A stretch of DNA of 64,000 nt from Fonticula-like sp. SCN 57-25 (taxonomy: Eukaryota), in NCBI GenBank assembly GCA_001724245.1, contig MEDX01000011.1, positions 1 through 64,000 on the forward strand, written 5' to 3'. The notes under the pieces are model-generated. The model did no database searches, was not told where the DNA came from, and worked only from the letters and a program-made list of their open reading frames with translations. Shown here piece by piece: positions 4,163 to 63,546 of this stretch (the stretch's first letter is position 1; the number at the start of each line of letters is the position of its first letter). Position numbers and translations under genes: made by a program.

Positions 4163-5376
4163 ATGGCGGGGTACTACAAGTCAGGGGGGCAAGGAGAGGC
4201 CACCAGCATCAACCAGAGCAATGTACGGGCTTGCTTCTTTGTTATCACGGTATTGATGGCACGCGCAGGTCTACAAATATGGCGGGACTGACGCGGACGA
4301 TCTGCTGCCCATGCCGCAGATGGGGTTCGAGCCGGACGTTACGCTACAGTTCAAGAAGGTCCCTACGCTATGGATTCTTTTGCTTCAGCCCCTGCTATTG
4401 ATAGCGGTGGACGTGCTATTGTTCCTGGACTTTAACACGGACTTTTTCCCGGTGACGGGCGCCGATTCGCACTTTTTGTTTTGCGTTCTCCTTCATGTAT
4501 TCGTGTTCCTCATCGTCGTGCTCGCGGAGCGCTACGTGCAGCACTACCAGCGGCGCGCGCGCCTTATGGGCTACCTCGAGTTTTACCGGAAGACGCGGAC
4601 GCTCCGCAAGGTGCCCTCTCTAATCCTGTCGCTCGGCAACGCCGCCATCCTGATCCTCATGAGCCTGTGGCCCACCGCCGTCGAGTACGCAGGCTTTGCG
4701 CGGATCAACGTGCTTCAGGTGATCGTCACCGCTGAACTCGTCGTCTGCGCCCCTGCTTTTCTTCTCCTTATCTGTGTGGCCTTTCTCTTTCTTTATTTTT
4801 TGCTGATTTGCTCTTTGTCGCGCAGTCCGTACGTGGCAGTTCAACGCCGCACGCCCTCGTCCCGACGCGGCAGCTATGCTTGCCCCGTCGTTCGAGCCCG
4901 CGTCAAAGCTGCTTGCAGCCCCCCAGCAGAGTGGCGGTGCCGGCGCGCCTCCCACCCACGTGGAGCTCGGTTTTGGCGGCGGCGGCGGCGACGAGTACTA
5001 CAACGACGTCATGGAGCGCCAGGCTGACATGATCAAGTACCTCCAGCAGCAGAAGGAGTCGCTGAGCCTCAATATCGTGCAGCTGACCGACAGGCTGCGC
5101 CGCTACGAGCAGAGCGCGCTCGAGCCCACCGAGGTGCGATGACGAAGGTTATGGCAGCACCCGCTAACCACCTTCGCGCGACAGAGCGACTTTCAGAACT
5201 TGCTCAAGGCAAAGGACCAGGAAATGCGCGCTGCGCTTGCAGAGGTACGATGGTCCTTGAAATGAGCCTTTATGACTCACATTTGTGCCTTGCTTCTCTA
5301 GCGGGACGAGAGGATTCGCGCGCTCGAGCAGCAGGTCGCCCGTCAGGCGTCTCCGGCCGTGGAAGCCAGCGACTGA
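4163..5376 (+). CDS. TMEM192: Transmembrane protein 192 homologue (lysosomal membrane protein)
   Basis: Four hydrophobic segments, GYLEFYRKTRTLRKVP...SLGN, and C-terminal coiled coil MERQADMIKYL match recalled TMEM192; about 5 exons. Confidence 0.85.
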
Positions 5377-8068: not shown

Positions 8069-9711
8069 ATGTCGACCGAGTTTGCGGTGTTTGTCACGCA
8101 GCCCGTGCGGCTCGACTACCAGTGCTTCCAGCTGTGGGTCAAGGGCCACCCAGGTTTGCCTCTCCCGCTTTGTGCTATGTCCTGTACTGATCTTTGCGTG
8201 CCCCATTAAGTGGAGCAAGCGATCTCCTTATGGACGCCGCCGCAGTCGTCGAGTCAGCTGGGGATCGCGGCGCGCACGCACGTCGACTTTGTGCGTAACC
8301 AGTTCCAGACGCTTGACCTGCTGGAGCACTACCTGGAGTACCCGAATGGTGCGGCGCTCTCTTGATGCCCGACGTGTGCTCACATCATGCATGCTTGTCT
8401 GGCATCCGTTGGATCTTGCAGGGGAGGAGGGTCGCGCGCCCATCTTTACCGAGCAGACGGTCATCCGCCTGCCGCCACACGTCCAGTCAATCATTCTCGA
8501 CAGGTACGCAGTCTCTTTTCGCGCCTCTGTTTTCGTTTTCTTTGTCCCTAATACTCATCCCCGTGCAGCTACTATGCGCTGGACGATGCCGTGCTGCGCG
8601 AGATGATGGGCAAGAAGCTGTCGTCCCGCCTGCGCAAGGATCTCGAGGTCGTGGCGGAGGAGAGCAATCACGCCATCCAGGTGCAGAGCTGCCGGCGACA
8701 GGTGCGCTTTTAACAGCCCTTTGCGATCTTTCTCTGACGCAGTTTCCCTCCCCTGCCCAGTTTGACAATGTGAAGCGCGTCTTTCGCGAGGTGGAGGACA
8801 TGCCAGGCCACCTCCCCGAGCTCATCCAAAAAATCTTTCTTGTGTCGCCCGAGCTCGCCAGGTGCGCCTCTTTCTTGCCTTGCTATTTTTGTGACGCTCA
8901 CACGCATGCAGGCGGTACGCGCATCTCGTCTTCCTCGCAAAGAACCGCGTCGACACGACACGCAAGCGGCTGGCGCTCCTAACATTTGGTGACATTGACT
9001 TTTGCGCCGGCGTGCTTATGGAGAACTGGACGGGTGAGATGCCGGGGCAGCCGAGCTCGGAGCTCGATACGGCCTTTATTCGCGACATTGCCGAAGTGAA
9101 AAGTGCGTACCATTATTTTTATTTTGGTTGTGTTGTCTCGTTTTCCGACATTTTAATTACGTATTTTGTCTTGTTCCCGTCATTTTTGTCACTTTTCCCG
9201 TCATTTTCACCTTTAACTAAACGTTCCGCAGCCATCACGTCGCACCAGAGCGAAACGCTTGAAGAGTACAGGCTCGCGATCTGCACGACATTTGAGCATG
9301 CCGGCCGCGCCAGTGTCGCTCACAAATGTACGTCATCCTTTTTTATTGTCACTATTGCTGACGGCGGCGTGGTACAGCGCACATCAAGCAGCTCATTCGC
9401 ACGTGTCTCCACCTCGGCGCCGGCCTGCGCCTTGAAAAAGAGTTTAAGGATCTCTTGTTTGATATTGTGCGTTGTTGTTGCCGTTGCTGCGCTTCTAACG
9501 ACCTTTTGTGCAGGCCGACAAAATCATTGAGCCGAGCAAAAAGATTGGATGGAGCACGAGCGACTTTGAGCTCTTTTTCACTGCGTTTACTGAGCGGTTT
9601 TCAGGTCTACGCACGCTCGACGTCGCGGCAAAGGAGCGGTACGCGAGCACGGTGGCGCGGTTTGCGCGCGTCCTCTCGGCGGCGTCCATCAGAATGTACC
9701 GCATCGGGTAG
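8069..9711 (+). CDS. FIBP: Acidic FGF intracellular-binding protein homologue
   Basis: MSTEFAVFV...FQLWVKG, YYALDDAVLREMMGKKLS, SCRRQFDNVKRVF and FCAGVLMENWT match recalled FIBP; about 8 exons. Confidence 0.9.
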
Positions 9712-20297: not shown

Positions 20298-21056
20298 TCA
20301 CTCCATCTTGTCGGGAACCGCCGTAGCCGCCACCTTCTTGGCCTTGCCCATCGCAAACAGCTTGCCCAGAATAAGCCTGCTCCAGTTCAAGTTGAGAGCG
20401 CGCGTAACCGTCACGCAAGCAAACATGAAGCAAAACGCTGACGCCTCCACAGTGCCTGGCATCAGCGCAAGGCCTTCCCTGGCGTGGTACGCCAGCGTGA
20501 GGTAAATGGCGCTGCCGCACACCATGCGGCTGAAGAGGAACGTGAGGGCAAACGTCACGCTGAACCAGTGATACGCGACCGGGCGATTACGGGCAAAGTA
20601 TTTTAGGTTCAAGAAGGGCGTCGAAAGCTCCTCGATCAGGAAGAAGAACATGTAGGGAACGGCAACGTTCAGATAGGTGCCGCCAACCATGGACGACGCA
20701 ACGGTAAAGTGGTGCACGAACGACTGCCAGTCGGCGGTCTCGGGGTACGCAATCATGACAATAAAGTCGTACATAAAGTAGCCAAAGCTGTAGAGGATCA
20801 GGTACGGCATGAGCTCGTCGCCGGTGCCGATGACGCCGAGGAACATGCGCGTCGGATTCCAAAAGTCTGGAGAGTACACGCAATTCCACGCGAGCACGGC
20901 GACTACGCAGTTAATCGCATGGATCGTAGACGCAAAGAGCGACCGCTCGCGAGGCGATCCCGGGAACAACCGAAAGAGCACAAAGTGTGCAAACGAAGAG
21001 GCCGCGACGTAGGCGGCCCACCACTCAAAGCTACGAGTCGAATTCAACGGCTCCAT
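20298..21056 (-). CDS. TLC (TRAM/LAG1/CLN8) domain membrane protein, TLCD4/TMEM56-like
   Basis: Intronless 252 aa ORF; STIHA, SFGYFMYD, FVHH, EELSTPFLN and FLFSR motifs; multiple TM helices. Confidence 0.9.
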   Translation of the reverse strand: MEPLNSTRSFEWWAAYVAASSFAHFVLFRLFPGSPRERSLFASTIHAINCVVAVLAWNCVYSPDFWNPTRMFLGVIGTGDELMPYLILYSFGYFMYDFIVMIAYPETADWQSFVHHFTVASSMVGGTYLNVAVPYMFFFLIEELSTPFLNLKYFARNRPVAYHWFSVTFALTFLFSRMVCGSAIYLTLAYHAREGLALMPGTVEASAFCFMFACVTVTRALNLNWSRLILGKLFAMGKAKKVAATAVPDKME

Positions 21057-21359
21057 CGTCGAATTTGAATCTACCGTTTTCTATTGTGTAGAGAGTGGCT
21101 TGCTTGCTGAAAAGGCTTCTGCGACAGGTGCGCGTGGCTAGACAGACACCAACGACGACGTTGCGAGACTGCTTGCGTCCCTTGACCCCACAGTCGTGGT
21201 CACGTGATGTAAACACTACAAAAGGAAAGCATTGCACCTGATATTGCCTTTTATGGGAATGGTCTCACACTGGTATGGTAAATGATGACTGTGCGTTACA
21301 TGCCGAAGTGACTACAAAATAATGACAAAATATAAAACGATAAGTAAACTGCACTTGCT

Positions 21360-22789
21360 CTAGTCGCCCCCGTCCGAGTCCCCGAGGTCTCCCGAGTCGT
21401 TGTCGAGGAACTTGTGACTGAGCACGTCTAATTCGCTTGTGAGGGTGTCTGGCATCTGGCCACCATTCGACGACACGACCTGCTTTTGTAACCTCCGGTT
21501 GGCCTCCTGGAGGTACCGGATGTAGTCTGCTGATTTGCGAAGAATGATTCCCTTGTTTGGCTTTGACGACGGGTTGACCTCATCGACGCAGTCGGGCACG
21601 AGCAGCGACAGCTCCGTGATGCGGTCATTGATATTGTCTCTCCGCCGGCGCTCGACTGAGGGAACAGGTAGGGTAAGAAAAAAGGGATGGCCTGCGACAG
21701 GAAAGCGTACCAGCATTATGGCTCTCGCGGCGGCGGCGGCGCTTTTCGGCGGCCCACGCGTCGGGACTAGCGCGCAAGTCAGGGACCCCTGAGGAATGCA
21801 ATGCGAGCGCGTACTCTGGGGACTTGTGCTCTTCCTTAAAGGTCGTCGGCACGGACGAGCTAAAGTGGAATTGGTAGTTGCCGGACGGCGCCACAAAGTT
21901 GGGAACGGTGCCCGAGCCGACGGACGCCGACCCGACCCAGTCGGCCGGCACCACACCGGGGGCGGACACGGGGATCGGGACGGCGCCATGGCCAGACTGA
22001 GGCCGGCCCTGCACAGCCATCGGCGCTGAGGACACATGCAGGTAAGCAACTGCGATAGGGAAACGGCCAAAATACGCACCAACCATGCCGTAGTTTCCAT
22101 ACGCAGGGGCCGAGGCGTGCCCGTCCATCTGCTGCTGTTGCTGCTGCTGGTGCTGCTGATGGTGCTGCTGCAGCAATTGTTGCTGCTGAAATTGCTGTTG
22201 TTGCTGCTGCTGCACTTGCTGCTGCTGTACCGGCTCGAGGTCCAAAAAGGTCAGAGGATCCTGCGCCTATGAAAAGGGTTAGAAAACCGACCGGTCAGCG
22301 CGAGGGTCGCACCAGTCCTGGCGAGTAGGTCATGTCAACTGATGGGCTTGGCGACATCGCAATGTCCATGTTCTCATTCAAAGGGTTGTGCGCGTCCAAA
22401 AACTCTGCGCTAATATTTCCTTGCACCTGCATCATGAAGGGGTCCGAGATTGACCGCTCGTCGAGGAGTCCACCAAGGCTGTCGCTCTCCTGCTTGATTA
22501 GCGGAGACGTCTGCGGCTGCTGCTGAGGCTGCTGGGGTTGCAAGTGCTGCTCGGCGTTCGCGCTAGACGCGTCCGCCGCAGCGCCGCCTGTCGTCTGCTG
22601 CAGATGGTAATTCGTGGGGAACAGAAGGCGGGCAGGCTGCTGCTGCTGGTACTTGGCCTCGAGCGTACTCCTGACCTCGGGCTCAAGCGGAACATCGCTC
22701 ATCGTCTTCATGTTTCGTAACCGCTCCCGCTCCTCCTCCTCGTTCATTTGTTGGCGTTGAAGCCATTGTCGCTGCTGGTAGCGGTACAT
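21360..22789 (-). CDS. MiT/TFE-family bHLH-zipper transcription factor (TFEB/MITF-like)
   Basis: Spliced bHLH RRRESHNA|VERRRRDNINDRITELSLLVP...NKGIILRKSADYIRYLQ; polyQ tracts; N-terminal PTNYHLQQ. Confidence 0.88.
22128..22228 (-). repeat. CAG/CAA trinucleotide repeat encoding polyQ in the bHLH gene
   Basis: Imperfect (CTG/TTG)n on the + strand translating to QQQQVQQQQQQQFQQQQLLQQHHQQHQQQQQQQ. Confidence 0.85.
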
Positions 22790-47457: not shown

Positions 47458-48406
47458 CTACCCCGAGTCTGTTGAAAAGTTGTCGTAGCTCTCGAGATCC
47501 GCGAGCTGCTCCTTGTTGATCCAGCCCTGCACGGCGGCCTTGCGGAAGGCGCACCTGGCATGGTGGTTGAGCACCCTGAGGAACGGGATCTTGTCATCGG
47601 GCAGGATGAGCGGCCTGTTTTGCAACTCGCTCCACTTTAGCGGGTCATTCTTTACGACGCGCTTGTTGAGCAGCGCCGGGTTGAGGACCTGCAGCAGCAG
47701 CCTTCTCGACTTGTCGTTCTCGAACGGGTTGTAAAAGAAGCAAATTTCCTTCTGGTCAAACGCCTCCTCAATGTTCTTGTCGAGCAGGAGGCCGTTGCGC
47801 GGGTTGCTCTCGGCGTCGCGCGGGAGACCAAGCGCAATCCACTTGTTGGACCGCCGCTTGAGGCGGCTCGGCATCAGATGCGCGGCCACAACTTCGCCCG
47901 TGTTGCGGCCGAGAATCATGCAGTCCACCTTCTTGCCAATGTTGTAGGGCTGGTAGTACGCGATCACCGCACGCCGGAACTGGTGCTGGTCGGTCGAGTT
48001 GTAACTCGACGCGGCGTCGCTCACGCTCAGCTCCCAAAAGTCCGGCGGCTCGCTGATATCCGGGAACAGGAGCGAGCTCTCAACAGGGACCGGCGGGCGC
48101 CGCCGCCGCACCGTCACATATATCGTCAACCGCTTCGCGCCGGCGGGGACGGGTGGAAGCGGCTCACCAAGGTCAACGCCAATGATCGGCTTTCCATCGT
48201 ACGTGATCTACAACGGGCACCAGTGAGAATCCCTGGTGTTGCCTCACAACCCCGCGTACAGTGACATCCTCGTAGTTGATCGCGTCGCTAAGACGACCCA
48301 CGTTGAACGTGTCAGTAATGCGGTCGCGCACTTGGTACCACGCAGAGTCCTCGTCGTCAAACTCGTAGCCGCCCGTGGCGTCGCCCGTCCAGAACACGCG
48401 CACCAT
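47458..48406 (-). CDS. HNH endonuclease (HNH_2-like) with N-terminal ubiquitin-like header; Crinkler-like effector
   Basis: Two exons (48406-48260, 48207-47458; 52-nt GTACGC..TAG intron) giving 298 aa; FRRAVIAYY, CMILG, AAHLMP, NPRNGLLLDKNIEEAFD and PFLRVLNHHA. Confidence 0.8.
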
Positions 48407-62211: not shown

Positions 62212-63546
62212 ATGAGCATGCGATATGGCGCCTTGGCGCAAATACACGCAAGGTTCGTGATCATACACCATTGTTGTTGGAAACTGACATAAAAACGGGA
62301 TTGGTAGTAAGGCGCTCACGATGCTGTGCATGGCCGCTGCCGTGGTGCTTATTGCCGCGCGCGCAGACGGCCTCATCAACGCGTCGCTCTGGTCCGTATT
62401 TGTACCGCTCTTTGTGTGGGACGCGGCGGCGATCGTCGGCGCTGCAATGGGACTCGCGGTGCTTGTCCGGCTGCCCGCCTACGAGTGCGCTTCAAACCCG
62501 AAACCGTATCCCGCGTGGCTAACAGATACTTTCCTCTTTATCAGAATTGAGCCCACTGACCACGAGGACGTCAAGAACATTCTTTTGACGGCGAGCCTCT
62601 TTGTATGCAAGCTTGTCTTTGAGCTGTTGGTGTGCGCCAAGGTTGATGGCGCGGTCATGATGTCGTGGTCCCTGGTCTTCATCCCGTCGTACGTGCTCGC
62701 CGTCGCGAGCATGGCTGTCTGCGTGTACCAGAAGCGGCACGAGCGCCCGGCAGACGTCGAAGGCGCGTTCGCCCTCCTCGCGCTCTTTTTCGTGCTCCTG
62801 CCGCTCAAGCTGGACGGCGTGGTCGACTGGGGGTGGCAGGTGCGCTCTCTCCTCCCCGCCATGCTTGCGCTGACTGAGCGCGGCCCGTAGATTGTGTTTA
62901 TCCCTATCTGGATCATGCTCGCGATTGGCACGGCCGCGGTGCTCTTCTTTGTCTTTGTCTACATGGGCTCCCAGCCCGCGCTCGAGGACGACCGCTCAGA
63001 GTACATCGGGCGGCTCGCCGTGCTCTCCTTTGTCGTCGCAATGATGGCCGTTTCCACGGTACGTTTCTTATTGCCTGTTTGACTGCCATTACTGAACTGG
63101 ATTTGTGTGCTTTTGCTTTTCTTGTTGCTACTAGGGATTGATCACGGCAAGACTGAGTGGCGCCATTGACGGGCTGTACACGGCGATGGTCACTCCTTTC
63201 CTCGCCGCCTGCGCCGTCGTCTTTTGGAGAAGCATCGTCCGAAGCGGCGGTAACCCATGTTCGTGCTTTCTATCTGTTGCATTCTGTTCTGACGCTCCTC
63301 TGTCGTAGGGTGGTTTGGACTCAGGCTACATACCAACCGCGAGAACGAATTCCTCCCCGTGTTCAAAGAGGTACGATAGTCTTTTTTGCTTGTGTATTGG
63401 CTGGCCCGCTCACTTGCTCTGATTAGGATGAGGGCGAGGCGCAGCCGCTCAATGGGGAATCCAGCTTGATCGACGACGAAAAGGCCGAGCCAGTCGTTAC
63501 TTTTACACCGCCGCCGCCAGTGCGGTCGCTCATGGTGCCCGATTGA
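62212..63546 (+). CDS. TMEM185: Transmembrane protein 185 homologue
   Basis: Repeated (R/K)xDG....W..VFxP units, FELLVC, WFGL and C-terminal xPD match recalled TMEM185A/B. Confidence 0.85.

What the first reader, a model, noticed from the sequence alone, without database searches (positions are those of the whole stretch)
21360..22789. TFEB-like factor that keeps apparent Rag-binding and mTORC1/14-3-3 motifs
Seen: N-terminus RQWLQRQQMNEEEERER...LLFPTNYHLQQ, and HFSSSVP shortly before the bHLH. Established: animal TFEB has RMQLMREQAQQEEQRER and LENPTSYHLQQ in its Rag GTPase-binding N-terminus, and SSSCP (Ser211) as the mTORC1-dependent 14-3-3 site. The basic region here (RRRESHNAVERRRRDNIN) looks more like fungal members. 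Inference: the lysosomal Rag-mTORC1-TFEB circuit may predate animals and be intact in this protist.
Basis: partly seen in the sequence, partly recalled or inferred. Interest (0 to 1): 0.72.

Follow-up and report, generated by a model that had tools for sequence, protein, structure and literature searches.

The report
TFEB/Rtg3-type factor with Rag-docking-like head
An unidentified intron-bearing microbe encodes a DNA-binding regulator whose core matches the fungal Rtg3 type, while its first 65 residues resemble the part of animal TFEB that docks onto the Rag nutrient switch, so this nutrient-sensing link may be older than animals, though no binding has been shown.

Summary

A profile of the family puts its bHLH closest to MITF and TFEB among solved structures. 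Its nearest sequence relatives are the fungal Rtg3-type proteins. That Rtg3's closest human homologue is MITF is already in print.

The new element is the N-terminus:
- It starts with a helix at residue 1. In an ungapped register this helix keeps 5 of the 8 TFEB residues that contact RagC/RagA (composition-preserving shuffle p = 0.0003).
- It also has an L-x-x-P-T-x-Y-H-L-Q-Q element like TFEB 76-86.

Profile support is only borderline. The window scores 9 bits against Pfam PF15951. A 58%-identical relative scores 26.1 bits (cut-off 27). Our own N-terminal profiles do not find human TFEB.

The helix occurs in eight sequences, seven of them unnamed, and in none of about 190 other relatives. Many fungal relatives keep only the P-T-x-Y-H element.

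The SSSVP site is weak evidence by itself (2.5% by chance).

Rag, Ragulator and FLCN genes could not be checked, because no genome is held.

The parts
21360..22789 (-). Whole coding span of the bHLH gene: 4 exons, 424 aa, stop codon at 21362-21360.
   Evidence: The spliced CDS is 1275 nt and in frame. All three introns are GT..AG.
22313..22789 (-). Exon 1, residues 1-159.
   Evidence: There is an in-frame stop 12 nt upstream of the ATG. In one search, six of the eight relatives start with M-[YH]-R-[YF]-Q-Q at residue 1, and two carry 1-3 extra residues first.
22700..22789 (-). N-terminal helix, residues 1-30, the candidate Rag-docking helix.
   Evidence: AlphaFold2 on alignment A2 gives a helix over residues 2-30 with pLDDT 84-91. 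10 of 19 TFEB positions are identical, ungapped, p = 0.0003.
22595..22627 (-). LLFPTNYHLQQ, residues 55-65, the counterpart of TFEB 76-86.
   Evidence: In one search the profile matches TFEB 74-91 (9.6 bits). L55, L56, P58, Y61 and H62 are invariant in alignment A2. Per, TFEB 76-83 contacts RagA helix alpha4.
22267..22312 (-). Intron 1, 46 nt.
   Evidence: GTGCGA..CATAG. In relatives the conserved [FY]L[DN][FL] block follows in the exon-2 frame. No read evidence.
22080..22266 (-). Exon 2, including a poly-Q stretch.
22026..22079 (-). Intron 2, 54 nt and in frame.
   Evidence: In one search one 243-nt contig of run X11 joins 22025 to 22080. The skipped part reads GT..AG on the minus strand.
21711..22025 (-). 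Exon 3: linker and first half of the basic region.
21814..21861 (-). SSSVPTTFKEEHKSP block, residues 277-291: a candidate phospho-site (S279-V-P) followed by a hydrophobic-K-x-E-x-x-S-P motif.
   Evidence: A similar S/T-x-P followed by a hydrophobic-K-x-E/D string is visible in P0110, P0114 and P0117. P0003 has the K-x-E part without the proline.
21656..21710 (-). Intron 3, 55 nt, phase 1, inside the basic region after H-N-A.
   Evidence: P0001-P0003 read ESHNAVERRRR or ESHNLVERRRR without a break. P0008 and P0152 read through an insert at the same codon.
21360..21655 (-). Exon 4: rest of the basic region, helix-loop-helix, a short zipper and an acidic tail.
   Evidence: Pfam HLH PF00010, E 1.3e-13.
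21501..21747 (-). bHLH DNA-binding and dimerisation domain, residues 315-378, interrupted by intron 3.

Best explanation
The gene encodes a 424-aa transcription factor of the Rtg3 / MiT-TFE lineage of group-B bHLH proteins. The bHLH binds E-box DNA as a dimer; this is inferred from the family. Its extreme N-terminus (helix 1-30 plus L55..H62) is homologous to the docking domain with which animal TFEB sits between RagC-GDP and RagA-GTP and is handed to TORC1. The most likely working is this. When nutrients are plentiful, the head docks on the organism's Rag/Gtr dimer at the lysosome or vacuole. TORC1 then phosphorylates Ser-Pro sites in the linker (candidates: S146-P, S279-V-P, S291-P, S308-P), and the factor is kept out of the nucleus. 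On starvation it enters the nucleus and switches on target genes.

Shown here: the gene model, the family placement and the sequence resemblance.
Inferred: Rag binding, phosphorylation, 14-3-3 capture and the target genes.
For: Gene model:
- Searches give the model. One intron is bridged by a contig.

Family placement:
- The profile of 6 relatives ranks MITF first among solved chains (81 bits, E 1.3e-21), then TFEB at 70.5 bits, ahead of USF2 at 67.8.
- All 108 hits and the 120 listed carry HLH. Those with names are fungal.
- Their sources label three of them 'Transcription factor E3' (P0154), 'Microphthalmia-associated transcription factor' (P0170) and 'retrograde regulation protein' (P0187).
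- PMC12862490 (passages read) states that Rtg3 orthologues occur in Metazoa and that the closest human homologue is MITF.

N-terminus:
- P0113 is 58% identical to exon 1 (E 2.6e-9). It hits Pfam PF15951 at 26.1 bits, E 1.3e-5, with residues 3-75 on model positions 1-77. Its next family has E 1.2.
- The window's first 75 aa hit the same model colinearly (residues 3-66 on positions 1-76), but at only 9 bits.
- 4 of the 9 N-termini hit PF15951 at E <= 10, more than for any other family.
- In an ungapped register, TFEB R4, R8, L11, R13 and Q15 equal window R3, R7, L10, R12 and Q14. These are 5 of the 8 helix-1 contact residues listed in PMC9931586. I5 becomes Y. Overall 10 of 19 positions match, shuffle p = 0.0003.
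- The motif sits at the very N-terminus, as in TFEB.
- TFEB L76 and the His of P-T-S-Y-H, which contact RagA, correspond to L55 and H62.
- AlphaFold2 predicts a helix over residues 2-30.
Against: - The window's own exon 1 gives no PF15951 hit at E <= 1, and its first 75 aa reach only 9 bits.
- P0113's 26.1 bits is below Pfam's cut-off of 27.
- The 9-sequence N-terminal profile, the 305-position profile and P0113 alone do not find TFEB, MITF or TFE3 in the PDB set at E <= 10.
- A search of 1.84 billion representatives with exon 1 found 11 proteins and, as far as could be seen, no animal MiT protein. Seven of the nine that were not already in hand were read. P0115 and P0116 were not read, and the library carries no names.
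- Two hydrophobic Rag contacts are Gln here (L7 to Q6, M9 to Q8). TFEB S3 is Tyr here.
- The helix is rich in Q, R and E, so part of the likeness is composition.
- Exon 4 alone scores higher against USF2 (47.3 bits) than against MITF (40.3).
- The basic region has V and D where TFEB has I and F.
- No named fungal relative has the helix.
- SSS.P arises by chance in 2.5% of linker shuffles, and HMMER did not align it with TFEB S211.
- Rag genes could not be looked for.
Confidence: 0.45

Rival explanations
1. It is an Rtg3-type factor that TOR or stress signalling controls by another route, as in yeast, where Rtg3 is held by Mks1 and 14-3-3. On this reading the conserved N-terminal helix and the P-T-x-Y-H element serve another purpose, such as activation, partner binding or export, rather than Rag docking.
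For: - The basic region is identical to the fungal consensus EKRRRRRESHNAVERRRRDNIN.
- The intron position inside the basic region is shared with P0008 and P0152.
- Many fungal relatives keep P-T-x-YH without the helix: 55 of 192 ERRRR-bearing sequences match P[TS].YH[ILM], while the helix pattern occurs only in the window clade. That element therefore has a use that does not need the helix.
- Rtg3 is a rapamycin-sensitive phosphoprotein and is held in a complex with Mks1 and 14-3-3.
Against: The helix keeps the register of TFEB's Rag-contact arginines, leucine and glutamine, and it sits at residue 1 as in TFEB. PF15951 matches helix and motif colinearly in P0113.
Confidence: 0.35
2. It is a USF-type factor, and the N-terminal likeness to TFEB arises by chance in a Q/R/E-rich region.
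For: Exon 4 alone hits USF2 best (47.3 bits against 40.3 for MITF). H-N-x-V-E-R-R-R-R-D and P-D-C are shared with USF2 in that alignment. The language-model atlas gave no useful hit for exon 1.
Against: - The family profile reverses the order: MITF 81, TFEB 70.5, USF2 67.8.
- Shuffling shows an arrangement beyond composition (p = 0.0003).
- The seven-residue P-T-x-Y-H-L-Q-Q match is far too specific for chance and is conserved across the family.
Confidence: 0.08
3. The gene model is wrong and the N-terminal exon belongs to another gene.
For: Introns 1 and 3 have no read support. No run on record as RNA holds the stretch.
Against: P0002 (371 aa) and P0003 (522 aa) carry the same N-terminus and the same bHLH in one protein. 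All introns are GT..AG and restore one frame. Intron 2 is bridged by a contig.
Confidence: 0.03

Closest known systems
Animal MiT/TFE factors (TFEB, TFE3, MITF, TFEC); TFEB in the Rag-Ragulator-mTORC1 megacomplex (PDB 7ux2, 7uxc, 7uxh; PMC9931586)
   Same: - A group-B bHLH, which the family profile places closest to MITF and TFEB.
- A helix at the extreme N-terminus with R, R, L, R, Q in the register of TFEB R4, R8, L11, R13, Q15.
- An L-x-x-P-T-x-Y-H-L-Q-Q element.
- An S-S-S-x-P string upstream of the basic region.
- The same order of elements along the protein.
   Different: - The basic region and helix 1 are of the fungal type (V and D where TFEB has I and F).
- The zipper is short.
- No C-terminal MiT domain was detected.
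- The spacer between the helix and P-T-x-Y-H is about 25 residues, against about 45 in TFEB.
- TFEB S3, L7 and M9 are not kept.
- S279 lies 49 residues before ERRRR, not 33.
- Pfam's N-terminal model is not reached at its cut-off.
Fungal Rtg3-type bHLH-Zip proteins (Mucoromycota, Zoopagomycota, Glomeromycota, chytrids, Basidiomycota; yeast Rtg3)
   Same: - A near-identical basic region and helix 1.
- The intron position after H-N-A.
- The P-T-x-Y-H element near the N-terminus in many members.
- An S-x-P string upstream of the basic region (invariant in the 6 sequences of alignment A4).
- The T-I-D-P / S-D-P-F block.
   Different: None of the fungal sequences fetched has the N-terminal helix. 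The window's bHLH groups with five unnamed sequences (P0001, P0002, P0003, P0006, P0025; SH-aLRT 91) in an unrooted, poorly resolved tree.
USF1/USF2
   Same: bHLH similarity: USF2 is the best single-sequence PDB hit for exon 4.
   Different: USF2 ranks below MITF and TFEB with the family profile. That USF proteins lack the MiT-type N-terminus is recalled, not tested here.

Membership tests
MiT/TFE (MITF, TFEB, TFE3, TFEC) | bHLH-Zip closest to MiT/TFE rather than to other group-B families | tested here: inconclusive
   The family profile A4 gives MITF 81 bits, TFEB 70.5, USF2 67.8, SREBP 56.5. Exon 4 alone gives USF2 47.3 above MITF 40.3. No tree with animal sequences could be built, because none could be fetched.
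MiT/TFE (MITF, TFEB, TFE3, TFEC) | MiT-type basic region and helix 1, as printed for TFEB and MITF ([20 protein letters not shown]) | tested here: not met
   The window has H-N-A-V-E-R-R-R-R-D-N-I-N-D-R-I-T-E-L-S. The I-to-V and F-to-D differences match the fungal relatives.
MiT/TFE (MITF, TFEB, TFE3, TFEC) | N-terminal domain Pfam PF15951 (MITF_TFEB_C_3_N) | tested here: inconclusive
   Window exon 1 gives no hit at E <= 1. Its first 75 aa score 9 bits, E 2.5, colinear. Relative P0113 scores 26.1 bits, E 1.3e-5, against a cut-off of 27. 4 of 9 N-termini hit at E <= 10. 1 of 108 bHLH relatives hits at E <= 0.1.
MiT/TFE (MITF, TFEB, TFE3, TFEC) | Conserved C-terminal MiT domain (Pfam DUF3371; name recalled) | tested here: not met
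   The Pfam scan of exon 4 at E <= 1 lists HLH and weak unrelated families only.
MiT/TFE (MITF, TFEB, TFE3, TFEC) | Rag-dependent recruitment and TORC1-dependent cytosolic retention through a phospho-Ser 14-3-3 site (TFEB S211) | not testable with these tools
   Only sequence likeness is available. S277-S-S279-V-P parallels TFEB S209-S-S211-C-P. Chance of SSS.P is 2.5%. No Rag sequence of this organism is available.
Fungal Rtg3-type bHLH-Zip | Basic region E-K-R-R-R-R-R-E-S-H-N-A-V-E-R-R-R-R-D-N-I-N and P-N-K-G-x-I-L-x-K-S in helix 2 | tested here: met
   The consensus and invariant columns of the 108 relatives match window residues 315-368.
Fungal Rtg3-type bHLH-Zip | Shared intron position in the basic region | tested here: met
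   P0008 and P0152 read through an insert directly after E-S-H-N-A, at the site of window intron 3. Only two such cases were seen.
Fungal Rtg3-type bHLH-Zip | Works with Rtg1, Rtg2 and Mks1 in retrograde signalling | not testable with these tools
   No genome is held. PMC12862490 says Rtg1 is limited to budding yeasts.
USF | USF-type bHLH-Zip with a USF-specific region upstream of the basic region (feature recalled) | tested here: inconclusive
   bHLH scores as. The USF-specific region was not tested.

The most novel reading that the evidence does not exclude
Rag docking of a MiT/TFE-Rtg3-type transcription factor is older than animals. On this reading the common ancestor of this lineage and animals already had the N-terminal clamp helix plus the L-x-N-P-T-x-Y-H element. 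Fungi then lost the helix and rewired Rtg3 control. This organism would be a living intermediate, with a fungal-type DNA-binding domain and an animal-type nutrient-sensing head.
Probability: 0.3. Interest if true: 0.78.

Novelty: new variant of a known kind. Interest (0 to 1): 0.58.

Why it matters
TFEB's substrate-specific, RagC-GDP/FLCN-dependent recruitment to mTORC1 is studied as an animal mechanism. Yeast Rtg3 is studied as a separate TOR-sensitive system.

A protein joining an Rtg3-type bHLH to a TFEB-type docking head would link the two systems. It would date the docking module to before animals. It would also give a short, testable peptide (residues 1-66) for asking whether Rag/Gtr dimers of non-animals recognise it.

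I found no paper on a non-animal TFEB-type N-terminus. The searches were made, covering PubMed Central open-access papers and bioRxiv only. Sebe-Pedros et al. 2011, on transcription factors of a unicellular relative of animals (Capsaspora), may bear on this but is not held.

Tried and rejected
Searches with the N-terminus that gave nothing useful:
- Word-index search with exon 1, longer proteins: no hit.
- PDB search with exon 1: only low-complexity matches.
- Language-model atlas with exon 1: score 0.79, uninformative.
- PDB search with N-terminal profiles A1 and A2 and with P0113 alone: no MiT/TFE hit at E <= 10.

Fetching animal sequences:
- The last word-index search, with profile A4, returned 628 hits. 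The best 120 listed carried fungal names or no name, so no animal sequence was obtained.
- Hence there is no tree or profile-profile comparison against animal proteins.

Identifying the organism:
- No genome is held.
- Earlier-findings look-ups gave nothing relevant.
- Rfam found nothing in the window.
- An atlas search with the coatomer beta' exon could not resolve the lineage.
- The bHLH tree is unrooted and poorly resolved: 89 columns, and 87 of 176 branches below 80.

Expression:
- No RNA holder is listed.
- Runs X9 and X13 cover only parts of the stretch and show nothing about splicing.
- Small-share runs were not used to infer habitat.

Target sites:
- TCACGTGA occurs twice in the window (1.36 expected). 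CACGTG occurs 21 times (24.7 expected). There is no enrichment.

Rag, Ragulator, FLCN and 14-3-3 genes:
- None appeared among the 155 reading frames of 130 aa or more that were scanned, of the 162 listed. Small or exon-split genes would be missed.

Full report
WHAT IS THERE

The span 21360-22789 holds one gene on the minus strand. A script that joins the exons by coordinates gives a 1275-nt reading frame and a 424-aa protein.
- Exons: 22789-22313, 22266-22080, 22025-21711 and 21655-21360.
- Introns: 46, 54 and 55 nt, each GT..AG with GTGCG or GTACG at the 5' end.
- The ATG at 22789 is preceded by an in-frame TAG 12 nt upstream. Six of the eight relatives start with M-[YH]-R-[YF]-Q-Q at residue 1 and two carry 1-3 extra residues first, so the N-terminus is real.

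Support differs between the introns.
- Intron 2 (22079-22026). One 243-nt contig of run X11 joins 22025 to 22080. The kind of that run is not on record. The contig is therefore either spliced RNA or DNA of a strain lacking the intron. The intron is in frame, so retaining it would leave the frame open.
- Intron 3. It splits the basic region after H-N-A. Support comes from P0001-P0003, which read E-S-H-N-A/L-V-E-R-R-R-R without a break.
- Intron 1. It has no read support. A conserved [FY]-L-[DN]-[FL] block does follow in the exon-2 frame in relatives.

FAMILY OF THE bHLH

- Pfam sees only HLH, in exon 4 (E 1.3e-13).
- Exon 4 alone hits USF2 best among solved chains (47.3 bits), then MITF (40.3) and TFEB (34.3).
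- A word-index search with exon 4 gave 108 proteins, all carrying HLH. The three best are unnamed. The best named hits are early-diverging fungi: Olpidium, Basidiobolus, Podila, Fennellomyces and Rhizophagus.
- A profile of six of these (A4) found 628 proteins. The best 120 listed carry fungal names or no name. Three are labelled by their sources as 'Transcription factor E3' (Gaertneriomyces), 'Microphthalmia-associated transcription factor' (Choanephora) and 'retrograde regulation protein' (Rhizoctonia).
- The same profile against the PDB ranks MITF first (81 bits, E 1.3e-21) and TFEB at 70.5 bits, ahead of USF2 at 67.8 and SREBP-1a at 56.5.
- PMC12862490 (passages read) states that Rtg3 orthologues by reciprocal best hit occur in other fungi and in Metazoa, and that the closest human homologue is MITF.

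The bHLH therefore belongs to the Rtg3 / MiT-TFE lineage, and that link is already in print. Within the lineage the window's basic region is of the fungal type, E-K-R-R-R-R-R-E-S-H-N-A-V-E-R-R-R-R-D-N-I-N. The intron position after H-N-A recurs as a read-through insert in P0008 and P0152.

THE N-TERMINUS

A search of 1.84 billion representative proteins with exon 1 found 11 proteins.
- One is the window's own fragment (P0109, 100% identical).
- The rest carry no names. Of the nine not already in hand, I read seven. P0115 and P0116 were not read.
- Eight sequences including the window share an N-terminal M-Y-R-[YF]-Q-Q-[RK]-x-W-L-Q-[RM]-Q-Q helix, followed 25-35 residues later by L-L-[FN]-P-T-x-Y-H-[LMI].
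- P0002 (371 aa) and P0003 (522 aa) join this head to the same bHLH in one protein.

Evidence that the head is related to the MiT/TFE N-terminal domain:
1. Pfam PF15951. P0113 is 58% identical to the window over residues 1-71. It scores 26.1 bits (E 1.3e-5; cut-off 27), with residues 3-75 on model positions 1-77, and its next family has E 1.2. The window's first 75 residues align colinearly (3-66 on 1-76) but at only 9 bits (E 2.5). The fungal protein P0008 scores 17.5 bits on model positions 64-93. 4 of the 9 N-termini hit at E <= 10. 1 of the 108 bHLH relatives hits at E <= 0.1.
2. In full-length TFEB (7ux2_P), profile A4 matches TFEB 74-91 (S-Y-L-E-N-P-T-S-Y-H-L-Q-Q-S-Q-H-Q-K) as a second stretch in the right order. 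The match is weak (9.6 bits).
3. Residue register. PMC9931586 (passages read) lists eight TFEB helix-1 contacts with RagC/RagA: R4, I5, L7, R8, M9, L11, R13 and Q15. Using these together with TFEB 12-24 as printed, the window matches 10 of 19 positions without a gap, one residue out of step. The pairs are R3=R4, R7=R8, L10=L11, R12=R13, Q14=Q15, E18-E19=E19-E20 and R21-E22-R23=R22-E23-R24. Composition-preserving shuffles reach this in 0.03% of 20,000 trials, taking the best of nine registers. Seven of the nine related N-termini give p < 0.05, but they are not independent of each other.
4. The paper states that TFEB 76-83 contacts RagA alpha4, with L76 in a hydrophobic pocket and a histidine in a salt bridge. 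The window has L55 and H62 at the matching places, and both are invariant in A2.
5. AlphaFold2 on A2 predicts a helix over residues 2-30 with pLDDT 84-91. This is consistent with the reading but not diagnostic.

Evidence against:
- Exon 1 gives no PF15951 hit at E <= 1.
- The N-terminal profiles A1 and A2, and P0113 alone, do not find TFEB, MITF or TFE3 in the PDB set at E <= 10.
- TFEB L7 and M9 are Gln here, and TFEB S3 (a regulatory phospho-site) is Tyr.
- The spacer between the helix and P-T-x-Y-H is about 20 residues shorter than in TFEB.

DISTRIBUTION

A pattern for the helix is found only in the window clade among 201 sequences: the 200 fetched plus the window. P[TS].YH[ILM] occurs in 55 of the 192 that carry E-R-R-R-R. 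These include chytrids, Mucoromycota, Mortierellomycota and Glomeromycota. So the second element is widespread in the fungal family, while the helix is shared only by this clade and, on this reading, by animals.

THE S211-LIKE SITE

Window S277-S-S279-V-P281 parallels TFEB S209-S-S211-C-P213. S211 is the mTORC1-dependent 14-3-3 site (review PMC10626434, passages read).
- SSS.P arises in 2.5% of shuffles of the serine- and proline-rich linker, and SS.P in 22%.
- The distance to E-R-R-R-R is 49 residues, against 33 in TFEB.
- HMMER aligned the fungal S-M-S-x-P elsewhere in TFEB.
- An S-x-P is invariant in the six sequences of A4.
- In the window clade the site is followed by a conserved hydrophobic-K-x-E/D. 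In the window this reads F-K-E-E-H-K-S-P, which fits the phosphorylation-dependent SUMO consensus (a recalled motif). That composite pattern was defined after looking at the data, so its shuffle rarity (0.12%) should not be over-read.
- Other candidate sites are S146-P and R-A-S308-P. The latter is conserved as [ST]-P-[DE]-x-x-W in P0001 and P0003.

WHAT COULD NOT BE DONE

- No genome is held, so Rag, Ragulator and FLCN-FNIP genes could not be searched.
- The window's larger reading frames contain none of these genes.
- No animal MiT sequence could be obtained, so there is no rooted tree and no profile-profile test.
- The organism is unidentified. Gene content in the window (TMEM192, FIBP, TMEM185A, GDP-mannose dehydratase) and short introns do not settle its lineage.
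- Run X1, a bioreactor metagenome, covers the whole stretch at high identity. It may be the source sample itself.

VERDICT

- It is a member of the Rtg3 / MiT-TFE lineage. This is well supported, and the lineage link is already known.
- Its head is probably homologous to the TFEB Rag-docking domain. Support is moderate and the profile evidence is borderline.
- Rag binding, TORC1 phosphorylation and 14-3-3 retention are inferences.
- The combination of a fungal-type bHLH with an animal-type head is a new variant. I found no paper that describes it.

Noticed in passing
window 22026-22079 (-): The 54-nt intron is in frame and has no stop codon. A retained-intron transcript would therefore add 18 residues instead of truncating the protein. 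One contig of unknown kind lacks the intron.
   Followed up: partly
window 21656-21710 (-); P0008, P0152: The intron inside the basic region (after H-N-A, phase 1) appears at the same codon as read-through inserts in a Fennellomyces protein and in an unnamed protein. This suggests an old, shared intron position in this bHLH family.
   Followed up: partly
window 21200-21207: A palindromic E-box, TCACGTGA, lies between the 3' end of the bHLH gene and about 145 nt upstream of the start of the TLC-domain gene (ATG at 21056). It is one of only two in the window, which is not above chance (1.36 expected).
   Followed up: yes
window 4257-5027 (+), 8317-9527 (+), 62288-62887 (+): Reading frames match TMEM192 (a lysosomal membrane protein family), FIBP and TMEM185A. 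I recall these families as uncommon in fungi, which would hint that the organism is not a typical fungus, but their taxonomic range was not checked.
   Followed up: no
protein residues 112-120, 163-170 and 306-316 (window about 22430-22456, 22232-22255 and 21744-21776, minus strand): Further short blocks are conserved with relatives: S-D-P-F-M-M (fungal T-I-D-P-x-L-L), [FY]-L-D-[LF], and [ST]-P-[DE]-x-x-W-x-x-E-K just before the basic region. They are likely activation or regulatory motifs of unknown role.
   Followed up: no
window 47461-48207 (-): A reading frame carries an HNH_2 endonuclease domain (E 2.5e-10) among housekeeping genes.
   Followed up: no
window 22511-22653: Several other contigs of run X1 match only short Q-codon-rich pieces here and run on into unlike sequence. 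These are low-complexity CAG/CAA repeats shared with other loci or organisms, not extra copies of the gene.
   Followed up: partly
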